Shown here: positions 50,236 through 62,012 of the stretch, piece after piece
How positions within the stretch are numbered: position 1 is the stretch's first letter
Layout: every line of letters begins with the position of its first letter
Assembly (NCBI GenBank): GCA_021789915.1
Contig: JAJYIV010000002.1
Span: forward strand, 613 to 64,612
Origin: a bacterium
Lineage (GTDB): Bacteria; Patescibacteriota; Patescibacteriia; UBA9934; GWF2-40-263
Direction of reading: 5' to 3'
DNA length: 64,000 nt
Made by a program: the position numbers and the translations under genes
The notes under the pieces: model-generated
What the model saw: only the letters and a program-made list of their open reading frames with translations
The model's database searches: none
What the model was told of the DNA's origin: nothing

Positions 50236-51348
50236 TCACCACCTTACGATCGCCAGCACCAGCGCCTTGAAGGCCGCCAGCAGCGGATCGACCAGCGCGC
50301 GCTTCCAGGCGGGCGACACTTGCGCGGATTCCACCGTCGACGCCATCAGGCGCAGGAGATCGCGGTCAGGCACGGTGCGGATCTGCGCGGCCAGCGCCCG
50401 ACGCTCGGCGATCCACGCCCACGTACTCGGCTTCCAAAAGAACGCCCACGCCCGCAGTTTCTTGCCCGCCCAGCCGGAACGCAGCGCGAAGAGAAACGTC
50501 ACGGCGTCCGCCGCGAGCATCGGCAGCAGCAGCACGGCGAGCGTCTTCGCCTTGAGATTGGACAGCGCGCACACCCAGCGGTTGCGCTCCATCCAATAGA
50601 ACTTCTTCATGCTGCGGTTGAACTCGTAGTGATGGGACACGACCGACCGGTCCGCATAGCCGATGCCGAGCCCCGCAAGCCGCGCGCGCCACGAGAGGTC
50701 CGTGTCCTCGTGGTACATGTAGTAGCGCGCGTCGAAAATCCCGCCGATCTTTTCGAGCGCGGACATCCGCACCAGCACCGCGGCGCCGGACGCGTAGAAT
50801 ACGGGCGCCTGCCTGCCGGCAGGCAGGTCTTTGATCTTCGCCGCCGCCTCGGGCGTCAGGTTTTCGCCAAGCGCATAGCCGTAGCCCAGGATCTGCAGCG
50901 CGTTGCCGATCGAGTTGAGCTTCTCCGGATCCTGCAGCAGCATGAGACGCGACTGGATGACGGCGTCCTGGGGATGCATTTCCGCGTACGCGACAGCCTC
51001 GCGCAGAAACCCAGGATCCACCGCCGTATCCTGGTTGAGCAGATAGACGTACTCGGCGCCCCAGGCACGCGCGTGCTCCACGCCGACGACGTTCGCGCCG
51101 GCGTAGCCGAGGTCGCGCACGTTCGGATGCAGCTCCATCTCCGGCAACGTCTTCCCTGCTTTGGGCAGCCAGTCGCTCGTGAGGAATGGGATGGACGCCC
51201 CGTGCGGCGACGGATTCTCCACGTCGATGATGCGCCAACATTCCTTTGGGTAATCGACATGCTCGAGCGACGCCAAACATCGCCCGATTTCCTCCGGCGA
51301 GCTCGGCGTGTAGTACGAAAGGTAGATGACGGCGACCTTGGGAGGCAT
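50236..51348 (-). CDS. Glycosyltransferase family 2
   Basis: ATG at 51346-51348 (MPPKVAVIYLSYYT). GT-A fold with DxD region (YLLNQD). Single-nt spacer to the upstream GT2 gene. Confidence 0.75.
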   Translation of the reverse strand: MPPKVAVIYLSYYTPSSPEEIGRCLASLEHVDYPKECWRIIDVENPSPHGASIPFLTSDWLPKAGKTLPEMELHPNVRDLGYAGANVVGVEHARAWGAEYVYLLNQDTAVDPGFLREAVAYAEMHPQDAVIQSRLMLLQDPEKLNSIGNALQILGYGYALGENLTPEAAAKIKDLPAGRQAPVFYASGAAVLVRMSALEKIGGIFDARYYMYHEDTDLSWRARLAGLGIGYADRSVVSHHYEFNRSMKKFYWMERNRWVCALSNLKAKTLAVLLLPMLAADAVTFLFALRSGWAGKKLRAWAFFWKPSTWAWIAERRALAAQIRTVPDRDLLRLMASTVESAQVSPAWKRALVDPLLAAFKALVLAIVRW

Positions 51349-51349
51349 A

Positions 51350-53398
51350 TCACCGCACGCGCGTCCGGAACAGCTCGTCCGGCCACTTGGCGAAATACTT
51401 GAGGAAGCTGATCGAGTGCGCGCGGGCCATCCGGTTGACGAGCAGCGTGCGCAGCAGGCTGCCCTGGCGCACCGATCCCTTGCCGTAGGCATGCTGCAGC
51501 GCCGCATCGGCCACATAGTACACCGGCCGGTGCATCGCCCACGAGCGGCGGCACAGATCCACGTCCTCGAAGTACATCCAGAAGCGCTCGTCGAAGCCGC
51601 CCAGCGCGCGCCAGTGCTCCATCGGCAGGAACAGCGCGGAGCCCTGCGCCCAATCCACCATGCGCGTTTCGCCTGGCGGCGTGTCGCGCATCAGGAAACG
51701 ATGGAGGTAGCGGCGGCCGAAGGCCGTGCCGCCGAGCGTCGTGCGCTGGACGAGCGGCAGCGGCCACGACGGGAAGCGGCGCACGGTTTCCTGCGCCTGT
51801 CCGTCGGGATAGACGATCTTGGGCGCGGCGATGCCGGCGCGCGGATGCGCGCGCATGAACGCGACGAGCTTGGCGAAGAGCCGATCGTCGACGAGTTCCG
51901 TATCCGGGTTCAGCACGAAGAGGAACTCGGCGTCGAGCTCGGCGGCGCCGCGGTTCACGGAGCTGCCGTAGCCGGCGTCCCAGTTGCGCTGGACGACCAC
52001 GCCGTCGGGAATCGCGTCCCACAGCACGGCCGCGGCATCGTACGCCGTCGACGCGTTGTCCACGACGACGACGCCGACGCGCAGGCCGGACGCCTTGCGC
52101 GCGCGATCGAGCGAACGCAGACACGCGGCGCTCAAATCGTCGTGCGAGACGATGACGACGGCGATGTCGAGGTAAGTAGCTGGCGGCTGGGGGCTGGCGG
52201 CTGGGGGAGAAAACGGGAGCGGGGCCTGCGCGCGCGCCGCGTCCGCGGGCGACGGCACGGCGCGAACCGCGCCGAACCGCGCGGCGTACGCGCGCCGCTT
52301 CGTGATCAGCTCATGCCGATGCTCCCACGTTTCCCGCCACGCCTCGGTGCACACGCGCGGCCGCATGACGAGCCAATATGCCGCCTTCGCCGCCTCATAC
52401 GGAAGCACGGCCCATGCGCGCGCCGGCGCCGAACGGAACTCCCCCTGGCTCCCTCTTGAAAAGAGGGGGAAGTGCATCGCCAGCGTCCAAAGATGGTTGC
52501 GGTACGAGTGGAACACCGGCCGCCAGGTTTGCGCGGTGCGGCCGATTCCCCCCCTGCCTGCCTCGCATACCCCCCGCCTGCCAAAATGCGGCCAGCAGGC
52601 AGCCCCCCTTGGCAGGGGGGCAATCCTGGCCGTGCCGAAGCTGCGGCGATGGTACGCGACGGCGTCGGACACGACGCCGGAGGCGAAGCCCGCGCGGCGC
52701 AATCTCCACGCAAGCTCGACGTCTTCCTTGTACGAGACGAACGACGGGTCAAACAAATTCCCGTCCAACGACGCCGCCTCTACCGCCGCACGGCGATACA
52801 TCGGCAGGCAGCCCGACACCCCGAACGCCTCGTGCACGCCCTCATGCAGCTGCGCCGTCGAAACACGCTCCCCTGCTCCGATGTCGCGCACGGCGCCCGT
52901 TGCCGACATCGCCAAGCCGAAACTGTCGATCACGTCCGTGCGCCCGCCGGACCCCTCTGCCCAGCTGAGCTGGGCCGTCCCCCCTTGGCAGGGGGGGACG
53001 ACACACGCCGCCCGATCGAAATCCCATCGATACACGCGCCCGGCGACGGACCCGAGCCGCGCGTCCGCGTCCAGCGCGGCGACGAGCCGCTCGAGATACG
53101 CCGGTTCCAGGATCGCATCGTCGTTGTGCAGCATCACGTACGCCGCCTGATGCTTGGAGAACAGCAGGTTATGCGCGCCGGCAAAGTCGACGTTGCGCGG
53201 CCCGACGTCCACGTACACGGCGCGGTCGCCGAGTTCCCGCGCGAACGCGCGCACCGCCTCGGCCTGCACGGGATCCGACGCATTGTCCGTCACGTACAGC
53301 GTCCAATCGCGGAACGTCTGCGCGCGCAGGGACGCCAAAATATGCGGCAGGTACCGCGCGCCGTCGTAGCAGGAAAGTTGGATGGCGAGTTTGGACAT
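51350..53398 (-). CDS. Two-domain glycosyltransferase family 2 protein (682 aa) carrying in-frame palindromic elements and a tandem-repeat linker
   Basis: Two GT-A domains (MSKLAIQLSCYDG... and IAVVIVSHDD...). Linker PPAASPQPPA is encoded by the tandem GCTGGCGGCTGGGG. Elements E5-E7 lie inside the CDS in frame. Confidence 0.75.
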   Translation of the reverse strand: MSKLAIQLSCYDGARYLPHILASLRAQTFRDWTLYVTDNASDPVQAEAVRAFARELGDRAVYVDVGPRNVDFAGAHNLLFSKHQAAYVMLHNDDAILEPAYLERLVAALDADARLGSVAGRVYRWDFDRAACVVPPCQGGTAQLSWAEGSGGRTDVIDSFGLAMSATGAVRDIGAGERVSTAQLHEGVHEAFGVSGCLPMYRRAAVEAASLDGNLFDPSFVSYKEDVELAWRLRRAGFASGVVSDAVAYHRRSFGTARIAPLPRGAACWPHFGRRGVCEAGRGGIGRTAQTWRPVFHSYRNHLWTLAMHFPLFSRGSQGEFRSAPARAWAVLPYEAAKAAYWLVMRPRVCTEAWRETWEHRHELITKRRAYAARFGAVRAVPSPADAARAQAPLPFSPPAASPQPPATYLDIAVVIVSHDDLSAACLRSLDRARKASGLRVGVVVVDNASTAYDAAAVLWDAIPDGVVVQRNWDAGYGSSVNRGAAELDAEFLFVLNPDTELVDDRLFAKLVAFMRAHPRAGIAAPKIVYPDGQAQETVRRFPSWPLPLVQRTTLGGTAFGRRYLHRFLMRDTPPGETRMVDWAQGSALFLPMEHWRALGGFDERFWMYFEDVDLCRRSWAMHRPVYYVADAALQHAYGKGSVRQGSLLRTLLVNRMARAHSISFLKYFAKWPDELFRTRVR
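52547..52622. repeat. Palindromic element E6 (double core), in frame inside the GT2 gene
   Basis: cccccctgcctgcctcgcataccccccgcctgccaaaatgcggccagcaggcagccccccttggcaggggggc. Confidence 0.6.
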
Positions 53399-61409: not shown

Positions 61410-61430
61410 ACCATCACTCCACCACTTTTC

Positions 61431-62012
61431 TCACAACCCATACGTGAACAAGCTGATCACGGCCAGCATGAGGGCGATCACGAGGATGGCGACGGACCAG
61501 GCGAACAGCATGGCGTTGCCCGCCCACACGGACACCAGCAGCAAACTGACGCCGAGCGCCTGCGCGAACATCTTGGCCTTGCCGAAGACGTTCGCGCGCA
61601 TGTGGCGGCCGTGCCGTTTGCCCCAATAGCCGCCCAGCGCGATCAGCACGTCCACGCCGAGGATGGACAGCGCGAAGCGCATGCCGACATAACGGGCCAC
61701 GATGAGCAGGATGACGGAGCCGATGAGAAGCTTGTCGGCGACGGGATCGTAAAACGACCCCCAGTCCGTGATCTGGCGGCGGACGCGCGCGAGGGAACCG
61801 TCCAGCGCATCCGTCAATGCCGCAAAGACGAAGAGCGGCACGCCCCAAGCCCATCGTCCGGCGACAAGCAGCGCCAGGACGATCGGCGTCAGCGCGAAAC
61901 GCAGCCCCGTGACCATGTTCGGCGTCACCGAGTCCGGAATGAACGGCAAGATCGTGCGCGCCAGCACCCGGTCGTGCGGATACAGGGCGCGCGGGTCTCG
62001 TTGCAATGGCAT
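61431..62012 (-). CDS. CDP-alcohol phosphatidyltransferase family protein
   Basis: ALTDALDGSLARVRRQITDWGSFYDPVADKL = D-G-x2-AR-x8-G-x3-D-x3-D motif. ATG at 62010-62012. The upstream 85 codons of the track ORF are artefact. Confidence 0.75.
   Translation of the reverse strand: MPLQRDPRALYPHDRVLARTILPFIPDSVTPNMVTGLRFALTPIVLALLVAGRWAWGVPLFVFAALTDALDGSLARVRRQITDWGSFYDPVADKLLIGSVILLIVARYVGMRFALSILGVDVLIALGGYWGKRHGRHMRANVFGKAKMFAQALGVSLLLVSVWAGNAMLFAWSVAILVIALMLAVISLFTYGL

What the first reader, a model, noticed from the sequence alone, without database searches (positions are those of the whole stretch)
50236..62012. Envelope glycosylation cluster with in-frame tandem repeats and elements (candidate contingency locus), and an incomplete CDP-sugar pathway
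The cluster encodes rfbF and rfbG (CDP-glucose to CDP-4-keto-6-deoxyglucose) plus two cupin epimerase-like proteins and rfbD. It lacks rfbH-, rfbI- or rfbJ-like genes, so the product is probably an unusual CDP-6-deoxyhexose. The three GT2 genes are tightly packed, with a TGA-n-ATG spacing. The PMT-like gene contains (CAGCTGG)x4 and the two-domain GT2 gene contains (GCTGGCGGCTGGGG)x2 in frame, alongside the palindromic elements. Repeat-mediated expansion or contraction could vary linker length or switch frames. This would make it a hot spot for surface-glycan variation.
Basis: partly seen in the sequence, partly recalled or inferred. Interest (0 to 1): 0.5.

Follow-up and report, generated by a model that had tools for sequence, protein, structure and literature searches.

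The report
Mini-repeats inserted in conserved glycosylation genes
A conserved cell-envelope sugar gene cluster of an uncultured high-GC Patescibacteria (CPR) bacterium carries many short palindromic elements and 7-base repeat arrays inserted in frame into protein loops; this looks like tolerated selfish DNA rather than a proven switch for surface variation, and the sugar pathway is complete.

Summary
The genes and both tandem repeats are real. They are (GCTGGCGGCTGGGG)x2 at 52179-52207 and (CAGCTGG)x4 at 60138-60166, and both ORFs stay open.

1. The pathway is not incomplete. A glucose-1-P cytidylyltransferase, a 4,6-dehydratase, two RmlC-fold cupins and an RmlD-like reductase form a full CDP-6-deoxyhexose route. 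This route has a biochemical precedent in C. jejuni HS:41.

2. The block from rmlD to the GT-C gene is syntenic in CPR relatives at 45-73% amino-acid identity. That fits housekeeping envelope biogenesis better than a variable antigen locus.

3. The repeats belong to window-wide families.
- Period-7 arrays number 19, against 3.2 in shuffles, and most are intergenic.
- A ~70-nt two-hairpin element has 9 of 11 copies in frame inside genes, including an rRNA methyltransferase.
- All eight checked segments are insertions relative to orthologues. In the two-domain GT2 they fall in low-confidence loops.

4. Repeat-number variation could not be tested, because only one population has been sampled. Its three assemblies are identical.

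Two observations remain unexplained. The GT-C heptamer array is orthologous in three species, with concerted unit changes at about four copies. A nested 24-nt module is exactly conserved in at least 120 genomes across many phyla.

The parts
47656..48579 (+). RmlD-like NDP-4-keto-6-deoxyhexose 4-reductase.
   Evidence: PF04321 at 216 bits; TIGR01214 at 199 bits, below its cut-off of 224. It is syntenic in L001, L003, L131 and L132.
48589..49152 (+). Cupin 2, an RmlC-fold sugar-nucleotide epimerase-like protein.
   Evidence: AF2 model with pLDDT 95. Foldseek top hits are 3ejk, RmlC, EvaD and WbcA (5buv). H64 and Y134 are invariant in the family alignment A3.
50236..51348 (-). GT2 glycosyltransferase #1, 370 aa. 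Its true start is the ATG at 51348.
   Evidence: Pfam GT2 families. TGA-t-ATG junction. A 370-aa gene is called in GCA_027328745.1.
51350..53398 (-). Two-domain GT2 glycosyltransferase, 682 aa.
   Evidence: Two PF00535 stretches. It has many ~600-aa homologues in Patescibacteria. In the AF2 model both domains have pLDDT 80-95.
52179..52207 (-). Tandem array (GCTGGCG/GCTGGGG)x4, equal to a 14-mer x2.1. It encodes part of the inter-domain linker (aa 398-406).
   Evidence: TRF, 100% matches. The linker is longer here than in the aligned homologues, and the closest relative P0089 lacks 15 aa at this point (A2). pLDDT is below 50 over aa 377-406.
52436..52470 (-). Mini-hairpin insertion (CCCTCTTTTCAAGAGGG) adding 9 aa (FSRGSQGEF).
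   Evidence: Absent from all 10 aligned homologues. pLDDT is below 50 over aa 312-324.
52561..52630 (-). Type-A two-hairpin palindromic element, in frame, adding about 28 aa.
   Evidence: 91% complementary to 60805-60874. nhmmer E = 4e-21. It is an insertion relative to all homologues. pLDDT is below 50 over aa 253-289.
52952..52999 (-). Hairpin-only element copy (CCCCCCTGCCAAGGGGGG), in frame, adding 16 aa inside the first GT2 domain.
   Evidence: Exact core match. It is an insertion relative to all homologues. pLDDT is below 50 over aa 132-148.
53403..53464 (.). Type-A element, intergenic. With the module variant at 53494-53524 it fills the 153-nt GT2#3 to two-domain GT2 spacer.
   Evidence: nhmmer E = 4e-18; sequence. 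The same junction is 3 nt long in relative L001.
53552..54418 (-). GT2 glycosyltransferase #3, 288 aa.
   Evidence: PF00535 at 70.6 bits. It is syntenic in L001.
54464..55273 (+). Glucose-1-phosphate cytidylyltransferase (RfbF type).
   Evidence: TIGR02623 at 223 bits (cut-off 300). PDB 1tzf at 8e-54.
55320..55757 (-). Cupin 1, an RmlC-like sugar-nucleotide epimerase or isomerase, 145 aa.
   Evidence: PF00908 at 29.2 bits. PDB 3ejk at 3e-18.
55762..55836 (.). Intergenic inverted heptamer arrays: (GCCATTA)n after the dehydratase stop and (TAACGGC)x3, the latter 8 nt upstream of the cupin ATG.
   Evidence: TRF; sequence; folds as an imperfect hairpin.
55841..56884 (-). NDP-glucose 4,6-dehydratase. 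It is probably CDP-specific because it sits next to the RfbF-type gene.
   Evidence: TIGR02622 at 182 bits against TIGR01181 at 170 bits. PDB hits 6bi4 (dTDP) and 1wvg/1rkx (CDP) all score about 1e-38 to 1e-40. A 347-aa gene is called here.
58621..59460 (-). Conserved 279-aa protein of unknown function. It carries an in-frame hairpin-only element at 59235-59260.
   Evidence: Exact core match. The 16-aa segment is absent from the L001 orthologue (A5).
59464..59524 (.). Intergenic inverted heptamer arrays: (GCCGTCA)n and (TAANGGC)x4, ending 5 nt upstream of the ATG.
   Evidence: TRF; sequence; hairpin z = -2.05.
59523..61409 (-). GT-C (PMT/ArnT-like) membrane glycosyltransferase, 628 aa.
   Evidence: 87 homologues, all from Patescibacteria where a source names them. 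Many carry PF13231 and some are named ArnT-like. The window protein itself has no Pfam hit.
60138..60166 (-). Heptamer array (CAGCTGC)x4 on the coding strand, in frame, aa 415-424, in a variable loop.
   Evidence: TRF, 100% matches. Orthologous arrays occur in L004 and L005 in the same codon register with concerted unit changes.
60397..60477 (-). Composite element in frame: a type-A-like hairpin with the 24-nt module (60415-60438) nested in its loop.
   Evidence: It is an insertion relative to all homologues (A1).
60805..60874 (-). Type-A element, in frame.
   Evidence: nhmmer E = 6e-20. It is an insertion relative to all homologues. Two-hairpin fold.
61431..62012 (-). CDP-alcohol phosphatidyltransferase, 193 aa.
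   Evidence: PF01066 at 100 bits. A 193-aa gene is called here. It is syntenic in L001, L004 and L005.
62041..64000 (+). Large polytopic membrane protein. It is 790 aa in GCA_027328745.1 and runs off the window. It carries in-frame elements at 62613-62761 (type A plus module) and 63806-63866 (type A).
   Evidence: Open frame; gene call. The 50-aa segment is absent from both orthologues and the 38-aa segment is absent from L001; L004 ends before that point (A4).

Best explanation
**What it is.** This is a conserved cell-envelope glycosylation cluster of an uncultured high-GC Patescibacteria (Uhrbacteria-like CPR) bacterium. It holds:
- a complete four-step CDP-6-deoxyhexose pathway: G1P cytidylyltransferase, then 4,6-dehydratase, then RmlC-fold epimerase(s), then an RmlD-like 4-reductase;
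- three GT2 transferases;
- a GT-C (PMT/ArnT-like) transferase;
- a CDP-alcohol phosphatidyltransferase;
- a large membrane protein.

**What the repeats are.** The in-frame repeats and elements are not a device of this locus. They are copies of repeat families found across the window that have landed in permissive places.
- One family is a ~70-nt two-hairpin palindromic element. It sometimes carries a nested 24-nt (8-codon) module.
- The other family is arrays of about four heptamer units. Most of these lie at gene boundaries.

**Why the genes survive (inferred).** Insertions survive inside genes only when they add a whole number of codons, have no stop in the frame used, and fall in linkers or loops. 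They are then translated as disordered extra segments. This is the behaviour described for Rickettsia palindromic elements.

**Shown and inferred.**
- Shown: the insertions, their loop positions, their distribution across the window, and the synteny.
- Inferred: that the segments are translated, how the elements move, and that they are selfish and neutral.
For: **Lineage and synteny**
- All named homologues of the GT-C protein are from Patescibacteria.
- The same gene order, from rmlD and cupin to the membrane protein, occurs in L001 (54% GC), L003/L004 (64% GC), L005 (49% GC) and L131 (55% GC). These relatives share 45-80% amino-acid identity with the window.

**Pathway**
- 1tzf at 8e-54 for the cytidylyltransferase. 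The dehydratase scores about 1e-40.
- Both cupins are RmlC-like.
- The RmlD domain scores 216 bits.
- The same four activities make CDP-6-deoxy-L-altrose or CDP-D-fucose in C. jejuni HS:41 (PMC12369002).

**Repeats are window-wide**
- 19 period-7 arrays, against 3.2 ± 1.4 in shuffles. Most lie at gene boundaries.
- Element copies also occur in an RlmI-like methyltransferase (15581-15646, 15227-15250) and after an unrelated gene (1509-1570).

**Insertions**
- Eight element-derived segments in four proteins are absent from the aligned orthologues (A1; A2; A4; A5).
- The GT2#3 to two-domain GT2 junction is 3 nt in L001, against 153 nt of elements here.

**Tolerated loops**
- The only internal AF2 segments with pLDDT below 50 in the two-domain GT2 are aa 132-148, 253-289, 312-324 and 377-406. 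These are exactly the four repeat-derived stretches, and they sit between domains scoring 80-95.

**Frame neutrality**
- Comparing filled and empty hairpins shows a 24-nt module, open in 5 of 6 frames (my reading of the sequences).

**Not artefacts**
- Two Logan contigs and the GCA_027328745.1 contig are 100% identical to the window.
Against: - The GT-C heptamer array is not a fresh, random insertion. It is orthologous in three species, and the differences recur at the same within-unit position in almost every unit, at about 4 copies. Either repeated slippage and homogenisation or a constraint at the nucleic-acid level must act on it. A purely 'neutral junk' reading does not predict this.
- Element copies are strongly clustered in this 11-kb stretch: 8 of 10 hits. 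Passive tolerance alone does not explain the clustering.
- No transposase or RAYT was found in the window, so mobility has no identified agent.
- Translation of the inserted segments has not been shown.
Confidence: 0.7

Rival explanations
1. This is a contingency (phase-variation) locus. Slipped-strand mispairing in the heptamer arrays switches the GT-C transferase and the second GT2 domain on and off. That would vary the surface glycan within a population.
For: - The unit length is not a multiple of 3, so one or two units gained or lost truncates the GT-C protein to 432-524 aa. The same change in the two-domain GT2 gives 419-426 aa or an out-of-frame read-through of 842-849 aa.
- The affected genes act on the envelope.
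- The GT-C array shows concerted evolution across three species. Homogenisation by slippage could produce this, and 1-unit steps would pass through out-of-frame states.
Against: - Each array has only about 4 units. Arrays of the same size are common in intergenic DNA of the same window, and none exceeds 4.4 units.
- All three species are in frame at 4.0-4.3 units.
- The repeat sits two-thirds of the way into the GT-C ORF and mid-protein in the GT2.
- The cluster is syntenic and conserved among distant relatives.
- Three assemblies are identical. The Logan contigs break at the dispersed elements but run unbranched through both arrays.
- No variant of at least 90% identity exists among 15 billion proteins. 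Only one population was sampled, so this is absence of data, not a negative result.
- The 14-mer array has no counterpart in the aligned relatives.
Confidence: 0.12
2. The hairpin elements and heptamer arrays are functional cis-acting nucleic-acid signals. [quoted passage not shown] On this view the intragenic copies are kept for that role.
For: - Arrays sit a few nucleotides upstream of start codons, such as (TAACGGC)x3 8 nt before the ATG at 55757, and just after stop codons. TAACTGA repeats in Beggiatoaceae sit in the same positions, and a translational role was proposed for them (PMC4679880).
- Inverted arrays fold into hairpins.
- The GT-C array keeps its periodicity, register and about 4 units across three species while its sequence drifts.
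- A preference for four units has been reported for other heptamer repeats (PMC4692102).
Against: - Fold z-scores are modest, from -0.5 to -2.
- Element presence is not conserved between relatives at any of the orthologous sites compared.
- Both orientations and several reading frames are used.
- Relative L131 uses 8-nt units in equivalent places.
- No candidate binding protein was identified.
Confidence: 0.15
3. The repeats reflect assembly or binning artefacts, or the interrupted genes are decaying pseudogenes.
For: The source is a metagenome assembly. Short-read contigs do break inside the dispersed elements: L128 and L130 both end within them.
Against: - Three assemblies agree base for base over 8.6-15.4 kb.
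- Every interrupted ORF stays open over its full orthologous length, and its conserved residues are kept.
- The GT2 domains model with pLDDT 80-95.
Confidence: 0.03

Closest known systems
Rickettsia palindromic elements (RPE; Ogata et al. 2000, from my own knowledge; mentioned in PMC1779305 and PMC3733652)
   Same: Both are short palindromic repeats inserted in frame inside many unrelated protein-coding genes of a small-genome bacterium. The host genes stay open and the insert is carried as an extra peptide segment at permissive sites.
   Different: There is no sequence relationship. RPEs are about 100-150 nt and restricted to Rickettsia. This element is about 70 nt (18-nt hairpin-only copies also occur), very GC-rich, and found in a CPR bacterium. 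Its exact core gave no hit in 185,579 reference genomes or in JGI metagenomes.
REP/REPIN elements, including GTAG- and CGTC-tagged REPs found inside genes (PMC3733652; PMC3116915)
   Same: Both are short stem-loop repeats that are dispersed and sometimes intragenic, with the host ORF preserved. They are thought to be non-autonomous mobile DNA.
   Different: The element has no GTAG or CGTC terminal tag, and no RAYT or other transposase lies in the window. REPs are mostly extragenic, whereas 9 of 11 copies here are intragenic.
Cyanobacterial small dispersed repeats (SDR, 21-27 nt) and heptameric STRR arrays (Elhai et al. 2008, Genome Res 18:1484; the paper is not held, so the description is from my own knowledge and the citation was seen)
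   Same: Both include very small (24-nt) modules that nest inside other repeats and hairpins and occasionally inside heptamer arrays. They occur in genes as well as in spacers. Both also coexist with abundant heptamer tandem arrays.
   Different: This module is exactly conserved in at least 120 genomes of many phyla, not only in cyanobacteria. Its association with flush hairpin stems (about 5%) or heptamer arrays (about 3%) is enriched but rare. The sequences could not be compared with SDR1-8.
Intergenic heptamer repeats: TAACTGA in Beggiatoaceae, cyanobacteria and Bacteroidetes (PMC4679880); GGGAATC-type in Xanthomonas and Nostoc (PMC4692102)
   Same: Arrays have 2-6 units with a mode near four. 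They lie mostly within a few to 50 nt of start or stop codons, and a few sit inside ORFs at peripheral or tolerant positions.
   Different: The units here are GC-rich (TAACGGC, GCCGTCA, CAGCTGC) and not G4-forming. The host is a CPR bacterium. One intragenic array is orthologous across species. A relative uses 8-nt units.
Simple-sequence contingency loci, for example the heptanucleotide repeats controlling HMW adhesins in H. influenzae (PMC8262952 and PMC12721329, titles and abstracts seen)
   Same: Both have a tandem repeat whose unit is not a multiple of 3, placed in or near a surface-related gene.
   Different: From my own knowledge, known switches use long tracts, typically well over 6 units, with documented copy-number polymorphism. 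Here there are about 4 units, no polymorphism is visible, and the gene cluster is conserved.
CDP-6-deoxyhexose pathways: C. jejuni HS:41 HS41.21 to HS41.18 (PMC12369002), and Y. enterocolitica WbcA (PDB 5buv), which from my own knowledge belongs to a CDP-6-deoxyhexose route
   Same: Both combine a cytidylyltransferase, a CDP-glucose 4,6-dehydratase, a cupin epimerase and a C4 reductase, without E1/E3 (RfbH/RfbI).
   Different: There are two cupins and no pyranose-furanose mutase. The nucleotide specificity of the dehydratase, epimerases and reductase is only inferred. The stereochemistry of the product is unknown.

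Membership tests
Simple-sequence contingency locus (phase variation) | A tandem repeat lies inside an ORF or promoter, and its unit length shifts the frame or the promoter spacing. | tested here: met
   There are 7-nt units inside two ORFs. One or two units gained or lost frameshifts both proteins.
Simple-sequence contingency locus (phase variation) | The tract is long enough for high-frequency slippage, and is longer than background repeats in the same genome. 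| tested here: not met
   Both arrays have 4.1 units (28-29 nt). Nine arrays of 3.7-4.4 units occur in the window, mostly intergenic, and none is longer.
Simple-sequence contingency locus (phase variation) | Repeat number is polymorphic among reads, strains or relatives, including out-of-frame alleles. | tested here: inconclusive
   Three assemblies of one population are identical, and the Logan contigs are unbranched through both arrays. No cluster variants exist. Three species all carry about 4 in-frame units. No reads and no second population were available.
Rickettsia-palindromic-element-like in-frame selfish repeats (functional class) | A dispersed palindromic repeat family is present in many unrelated genes, with the ORFs preserved. 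| tested here: met
   Nine intragenic copies lie in five proteins, including an rRNA methyltransferase. All the ORFs are open.
Rickettsia-palindromic-element-like in-frame selfish repeats (functional class) | The copies are insertions relative to orthologues, and they lie at structurally permissive sites. | tested here: met
   Alignments A1, A2, A4 and A5. The AF2 low-confidence loops coincide with the inserts.
Rickettsia-palindromic-element-like in-frame selfish repeats (functional class) | Sequence homology to RPE families. | not tested
   No RPE sequences were compared. Homology is implausible given that the core is about 80% GC. I claim that it works like an RPE, not that it is a member.
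REP/REPIN (RAYT-mobilised) | A conserved GTAG or CGTC tag, and an associated RAYT (IS200/IS605-like) gene. | tested here: not met
   There is no terminal tag in the aligned copies. No Y1 transposase was found among about 37 other ORFs in the window. The rest of the genome was not available.
Cyanobacterial SDR-type mini-elements | A 21-27-nt unit that nests in hairpins, other repeats or heptamer arrays, with filled and empty sites. | tested here: inconclusive
   The module is 24 nt. The hairpin occurs empty at 52603, 59243 and 60815 and filled at 60397 and 62657. Nesting in sister modules is seen. Flush stems and heptamer flanks are enriched 6-8 fold but occur in only 3-5% of 117 copies. The reference paper could not be read.
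CDP-3,6-dideoxyhexose (rfb/asc) pathway | RfbH/E1 (PMP-dependent 3-dehydrase) and RfbI/E3 are present alongside RfbF and RfbG. | tested here: not met
   No DegT/DnrJ/EryC1-type or E3-type ORF appears in the window ORFs scanned or in the syntenic relatives. The rest of the genome was not seen.
CDP-6-deoxyhexose pathway (HS:41 or WbcA type) | A cytidylyltransferase, a 4,6-dehydratase, a cupin 3- and/or 5-epimerase and a 4-reductase are encoded together. | tested here: met
   precedent in PMC12369002. The enzyme activities and CDP specificity of the later steps are inferred, not shown.
GT-C (PMT/ArnT-like) glycosyltransferase | A match to PF13231 or PF02366, and a polytopic membrane topology. | tested here: inconclusive
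   The window protein has no Pfam or NCBIfam hit. Many homologues at 37-47% identity carry PF13231, and some are named ArnT-like. The sequence is hydrophobic and multi-helix.

The most novel reading that the evidence does not exclude
The 24-nt module CCTGTCCTGAGCGAAGTCGAAGGA, nested in two of the in-frame elements here, may belong to an undescribed pan-bacterial class of ultra-small mobile DNA. Its length is exactly 8 codons and it is open in 5 of 6 frames. On this reading it moves within and between phyla, possibly carried by phages, and can settle inside genes without breaking them. The heptamer arrays of about four units, including the conserved and concertedly evolving array in the GT-C gene, would be products or landing pads of the same unknown machinery rather than ordinary slippage repeats.
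Probability: 0.25. Interest if true: 0.75.

Novelty: new member of a known kind. Interest (0 to 1): 0.4.

Why it matters
**For annotation.** These proteins are intact enzymes with extra disordered loops. They are neither pseudogenes nor a broken pathway. The GT-C protein falls below Pfam thresholds, possibly because of its inserts.

**For CPR biology.**
- The block from rmlD to the GT-C gene is a conserved envelope-glycan module in an Uhrbacteria-like lineage. It probably builds a CDP-6-deoxyhexose-containing polymer.
- A reduced CPR genome appears to tolerate a high load of in-frame selfish DNA: at least 9 insertions across five genes, and up to four repeat-derived segments in one enzyme.
- I found no paper describing this for Patescibacteria.

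**More generally.**
- The exact conservation of a 24-nt module across phyla is unexplained.
- So is the orthologous 4-unit heptamer array that evolves in concert.
- Both could open a route to the long-unexplained origin of heptamer arrays and SDR-like mini-elements.

Tried and rejected
**Searches that gave little or nothing**
- The exact type-A core (CCAAGGGGRGGCTGCCTGCTGGCC) gave 0 hits in genome contigs and 0 in metagenome contigs.
- A shorter core found only two soil contigs. They carry a related two-hairpin element with a different second hairpin.
- Rfam found only tRNAs at gathering level. In E-value mode over 60300-60950 it returned only noise.
- The look-up of encoding contigs found nothing for P0088. 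Neighbouring proteins gave the source assemblies instead.
- Elhai et al. 2008 could not be read. No paper contains the module sequence.
- No paper links palindromic in-frame elements to Patescibacteria.

**Ideas I dropped or weakened**
- My first impression was that the 23-nt module usually sits in host hairpin loops or heptamer arrays. Counting overturned this. Only 6 of 118 copies have flush stems of at least 8 bp (control 0.8%), and 3 of 117 have adjacent heptamer repeats (control 0.5%).
- DNA folding z-scores for the elements are weak, because GC-rich shuffles also fold well.
- I considered introns, inteins, CRISPR and ribozymes for the elements and rejected them. The elements are only 18-85 nt, have no Rfam match, occur in both orientations and are read in several frames.
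- I considered an assembly artefact and rejected it.

Full report
**1. Source and setting**

The window has about 65% GC. All named homologues of the GT-C (PMT/ArnT-like) protein come from Patescibacteria/CPR, for example Uhrbacteria, and the best foreign hit is only 54-62% identical. The window matches three other assemblies of one population base for base:
- GCA_027328745.1, over window 48621-64000;
- two Logan contigs from run SRR13170411, over window 43978-52618 and 52598-60426.

**2. Checking the observation**

TRF confirms (GCTGGCGGCTGGGG)x2.1 at 52179-52207 and (GCAGCTG)x4.1 at 60138-60166. Both are perfect repeats.

- GT2 at 50236-51348(-);
- two-domain GT2 at 51350-53398(-);
- GT2 at 53552-54418(-);
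- RfbF-type cytidylyltransferase at 54464-55273(+);
- cupin at 55320-55757(-);
- 4,6-dehydratase at 55841-56884(-);
- HIT protein, two small paralogous proteins and a conserved 279-aa protein;
- GT-C gene at 59523-61409(-);
- CDP-alcohol phosphatidyltransferase at 61431-62012(-).

Four corrections are needed:
- The rmlD-like gene (47656-48579) and the second cupin (48589-49152) lie outside the stated range.
- The TGA-n-ATG spacing holds at only one junction, TGA-t-ATG at 51352-51346.
- The other GT2 junction is a 153-nt spacer built from a type-A element and a variant of the 24-nt module. In relative L001 the same junction is 3 nt long.
- A further membrane-protein gene on the + strand starts at 62041 and runs off the window.

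**3. The sugar pathway is complete**

- The cytidylyltransferase matches S. typhi RfbF (PDB 1tzf) at 8e-54.
- The dehydratase scores equally against dTDP- and CDP-glucose 4,6-dehydratase structures. NCBIfam slightly favours the CDP type, below its cut-off.
- Cupin 1 matches the structure 3ejk, named 'dTDP sugar isomerase'.
- Cupin 2 had no sequence hit in the PDB. It models at pLDDT 95 as an RmlC fold. Its top structural hits are 3ejk, RmlC, EvaD and Y. enterocolitica WbcA. An invariant His64 and Tyr134 appear in its family alignment.
- With the RmlD-like reductase this makes the four-activity route. In C. jejuni HS:41 that route yields CDP-D-fucose or CDP-6-deoxy-L-altrose without RfbH, RfbI or RfbJ (PMC12369002).
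- No rfbH-like ORF exists among the other window ORFs scanned, and none appears in the syntenic relatives.
'Incomplete' is the wrong word for the pathway.

**4. The cluster is conserved**

The same order runs through four relatives. The order is PEGA, rmlD, cupin, GT2, two-domain GT2, GT2, cytidylyltransferase (opposite strand), cupin, dehydratase, small ORFs, HIT, 260-280-aa protein, GT-C, CDP-alcohol phosphatidyltransferase and a divergent large membrane protein. The relatives are:
- L001 (GCA_900206355.1, 54% GC);
- L003/L004 (64% GC);
- L005 (49% GC);
- L131 (55% GC).

They share 45-80% amino-acid identity with the window. This pattern fits core envelope biogenesis better than a hypervariable antigen locus.

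My functional model is inferred. The CDP-6-deoxyhexose is made in the cytoplasm. The GT2 enzymes build a lipid-linked glycan; some homologues are named WbbL-like rhamnosyltransferases. The GT-C enzyme then transfers it outside the membrane.

**5. The palindromic elements**

A family of about 70 nt has this layout: CCCCCC-TGCCAA-GGGGGG, then CTGCCTGC-loop-GCAGGCGG, then GGGG. It folds as two hairpins.
- Full copies lie at 52561-52630, 53403-53464, 60805-60874, 62613-62653, 63806-63866, 15581-15646 and 1509-1570.
- Hairpin-only copies lie at 52979-52997, 59243-59260 and 15227-15244.
- Composites lie at 60397-60477 and 62657-62761.

Nine of the 11 copies are inside ORFs, and every one of those ORFs stays open. 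The copies occur in both orientations and are read in several frames, giving peptides such as APLPRGAACWP, GQQAAPLGRG, PPCQGG and PPWQGG.

Alignments with orthologues show that the eight checked segments are absent from the aligned relatives, though one could be compared with only one orthologue:
- two in the GT-C protein (A1);
- three in the two-domain GT2, of 16, 28 and 9 aa (A2);
- two in the 790-aa membrane protein, of 50 and 38 aa (A4; the second could be checked only against L001);
- one in the 279-aa protein (A5).

In the AF2 model of the two-domain GT2, the only internal stretches with pLDDT below 50 are aa 132-148, 253-289, 312-324 and 377-406. These are the three inserts and the repeat-bearing linker. 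The two GT2 domains score 80-95.

Relatives carry other inserts at other sites, for example 'SPPFQGGERGG' in P0090. Insertion is therefore ongoing and specific to each lineage.

One host gene is an RlmI-like rRNA methyltransferase, so the elements do not target envelope genes as such. Even so, 8 of the 10 best hits lie in 18% of the window. That suggests local spread or unusually permissive targets.

No transposase or RAYT is encoded in the window.

**6. The 24-nt module**

Empty hairpins read CCCCCCTGCCAAGGGGGG. Comparing them with the filled ones at 60397 and 62657 shows an inserted CCTGTCCTGAGCGAAGTCGAAGGA. It is 24 nt, or 8 codons, and open in 5 of 6 frames (my reading).

The hosts include Acidobacteriota, Chloroflexota, Planctomycetota, Bacteroidota, Proteobacteria, Verrucomicrobiota, a cyanobacterium, Kaiserbacteria and Wolfebacteria. 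By my estimate the chance expectation is about 0.02. Seven IMG/VR viral contigs carry it too.

The flanks of the copies are unrelated between loci. Many copies sit nested in an inverted sister module. Flush host stems and heptamer flanks are enriched but rare, at 5% and 3%.

This resembles the cyanobacterial 'small dispersed repeats' of Elhai et al. 2008, but with a far wider distribution. That paper could not be read here, so the comparison rests on my memory of it. I found no paper containing the module sequence.

**7. The heptamer arrays**

Period-7 arrays are strongly over-represented in the window. There are 19, against 3.2 ± 1.4 in shuffles. Nine have at least 3.5 units, against 0.17 in shuffles.

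Most lie at gene boundaries:
- (TAACGGC)x3 sits 8 nt before the cupin ATG.
- (TAANGGC)x4 sits 5 nt before the ATG of the 279-aa gene.
- Inverted (GCCATTA) or (GCCGTCA) arrays follow the upstream stop codons.
- Similar arrays occur at 11324, 14774, 21872, 26874 and 46444.

This matches the known but unexplained class of heptamer repeats. [quoted passage not shown] Relative L131 has 8-nt units of about 4.5 copies in equivalent spacers.

**8. Is it a contingency locus?**

*Points in favour.* One or two units gained or lost frameshifts and truncates both proteins. The GT-C array has also clearly been homogenised. Orthologous arrays in the same codon register occur in three species:
- the window, CAGCTGC x4;
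- L004, CAACTAC x4;
- L005, CAGATGC x4.3.

The differences fall at the same within-unit position in almost every unit.

*Points against.*
- The arrays have only about 4 units, no longer than the intergenic arrays of the same window.
- All three species are in frame at about 4 units.
- The 14-mer array has no counterpart in the aligned relatives.
- The cluster is conserved.
- The three assemblies are identical. The Logan contigs stop at the dispersed elements but run unbranched through both arrays.
- No variants of at least 90% identity exist among about 15 billion proteins. The organism has been sampled only once, so this is absence of data.

The hypothesis is therefore unsupported, but it has not been refuted. 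I give it about 0.12.

**9. Verdict**

The locus is a conserved, complete CPR envelope-glycosylation cluster. It is heavily colonised by in-frame, RPE-like palindromic mini-elements and by heptamer arrays that belong to window-wide families. It is a new member of a known kind. Interest is moderate. It rests mainly on three things:
- the density of tolerated in-frame insertions in a CPR genome;
- the concertedly evolving orthologous array;
- the 24-nt module shared across phyla.

Noticed in passing
window 60415-60438 and 62671-62694; loci L006-L125, L134-L140: The 23-nt core of a 24-nt module (CCTGTCCTGAGCGAAGTCGAAGG) is exactly conserved in at least 120 reference genomes from more than 10 phyla and in 7 IMG/VR viral contigs. 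Its flanks are unrelated between loci, and it is often nested in an inverted sister module. No paper containing the sequence was found.
   Followed up: partly
window 60138-60166; L004 3207-3296; L005 2087-2145: An orthologous heptamer array of about 4 units sits in the same loop and codon register of the GT-C gene in three species that share 47-62% amino-acid identity. Nearly all units of an array carry the same substitution, which indicates concerted evolution. L004 and L005 also have a second upstream array (TGGCAGT or GCAGCTA) that encodes part of a transmembrane helix.
   Followed up: partly
window 55762-55836, 59464-59524, 21872-21902, 11324-11352, 14774-14800, 26874-26896, 46444-46587: Intergenic heptamer arrays of the forms (TAANGGC)n and (GCCNTNA)n, with 2-4.4 units, lie a few nucleotides upstream of start codons or just after stop codons. 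Several occur as inverted pairs that form hairpins. They resemble the TAACTGA and STRR-type repeats of other phyla.
   Followed up: partly
L131 3957-4028 and 5668-5759: A 55%-GC relative has 8-nt tandem arrays (ACTCAGTG x4.6; AGTGATTG x4.5 inverted with ACTCAATC x4.4) in the equivalent intergenic positions. The unit length differs from the window, but the copy number is again about 4.5.
   Followed up: no
window 19235-19333: A perfect 27-nt x3.7 tandem repeat lies inside a 141-aa ORF (19052-19477, minus strand) and encodes FATKDDLQN x4. This is a true codon-periodic VNTR in a small protein with a repeated 9-residue motif.
   Followed up: no
window 14886-16100 (-): An RlmI-like SAM-dependent rRNA methyltransferase (PUA plus Methyltrans_SAM domains) carries in-frame copies of the same palindromic element at 15581-15646 and 15227-15250. 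A similar mini-hairpin may lie near 15884-15907.
   Followed up: partly
window 49199-50092 (-): A 297-aa ORF with an internal 330-nt duplication (80% identity) has no Pfam hit. This slot between cupin 2 and GT2 #1 varies among relatives: L001 has a methyltransferase there and L131 has nothing.
   Followed up: no
L126 3808-3833; L127 4758-4782: Two soil-metagenome contigs (64% GC) carry a related two-hairpin element. It shares the first hairpin but has a different second one: CCCCCCTGCCAAGGGGGG-CTGCCGC-GAAG-CGGCGG-GGG.
   Followed up: no
window 40523-40616 (-): ARAGORN calls a 94-nt tRNA-Ala(ggc) that overlaps the 3' end of the HflX-like GTPase ORF. Rfam does not report it, so it is probably a false positive.
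   Followed up: no
L001 2708-4495 (P0003): In a 54%-GC relative, the same GT-C loop that holds the heptamer array here carries a different insert of about 25 aa (…LLRRMPSRNDEGEGHGDVGD…). This loop appears to be a recurrent landing site.
   Followed up: no
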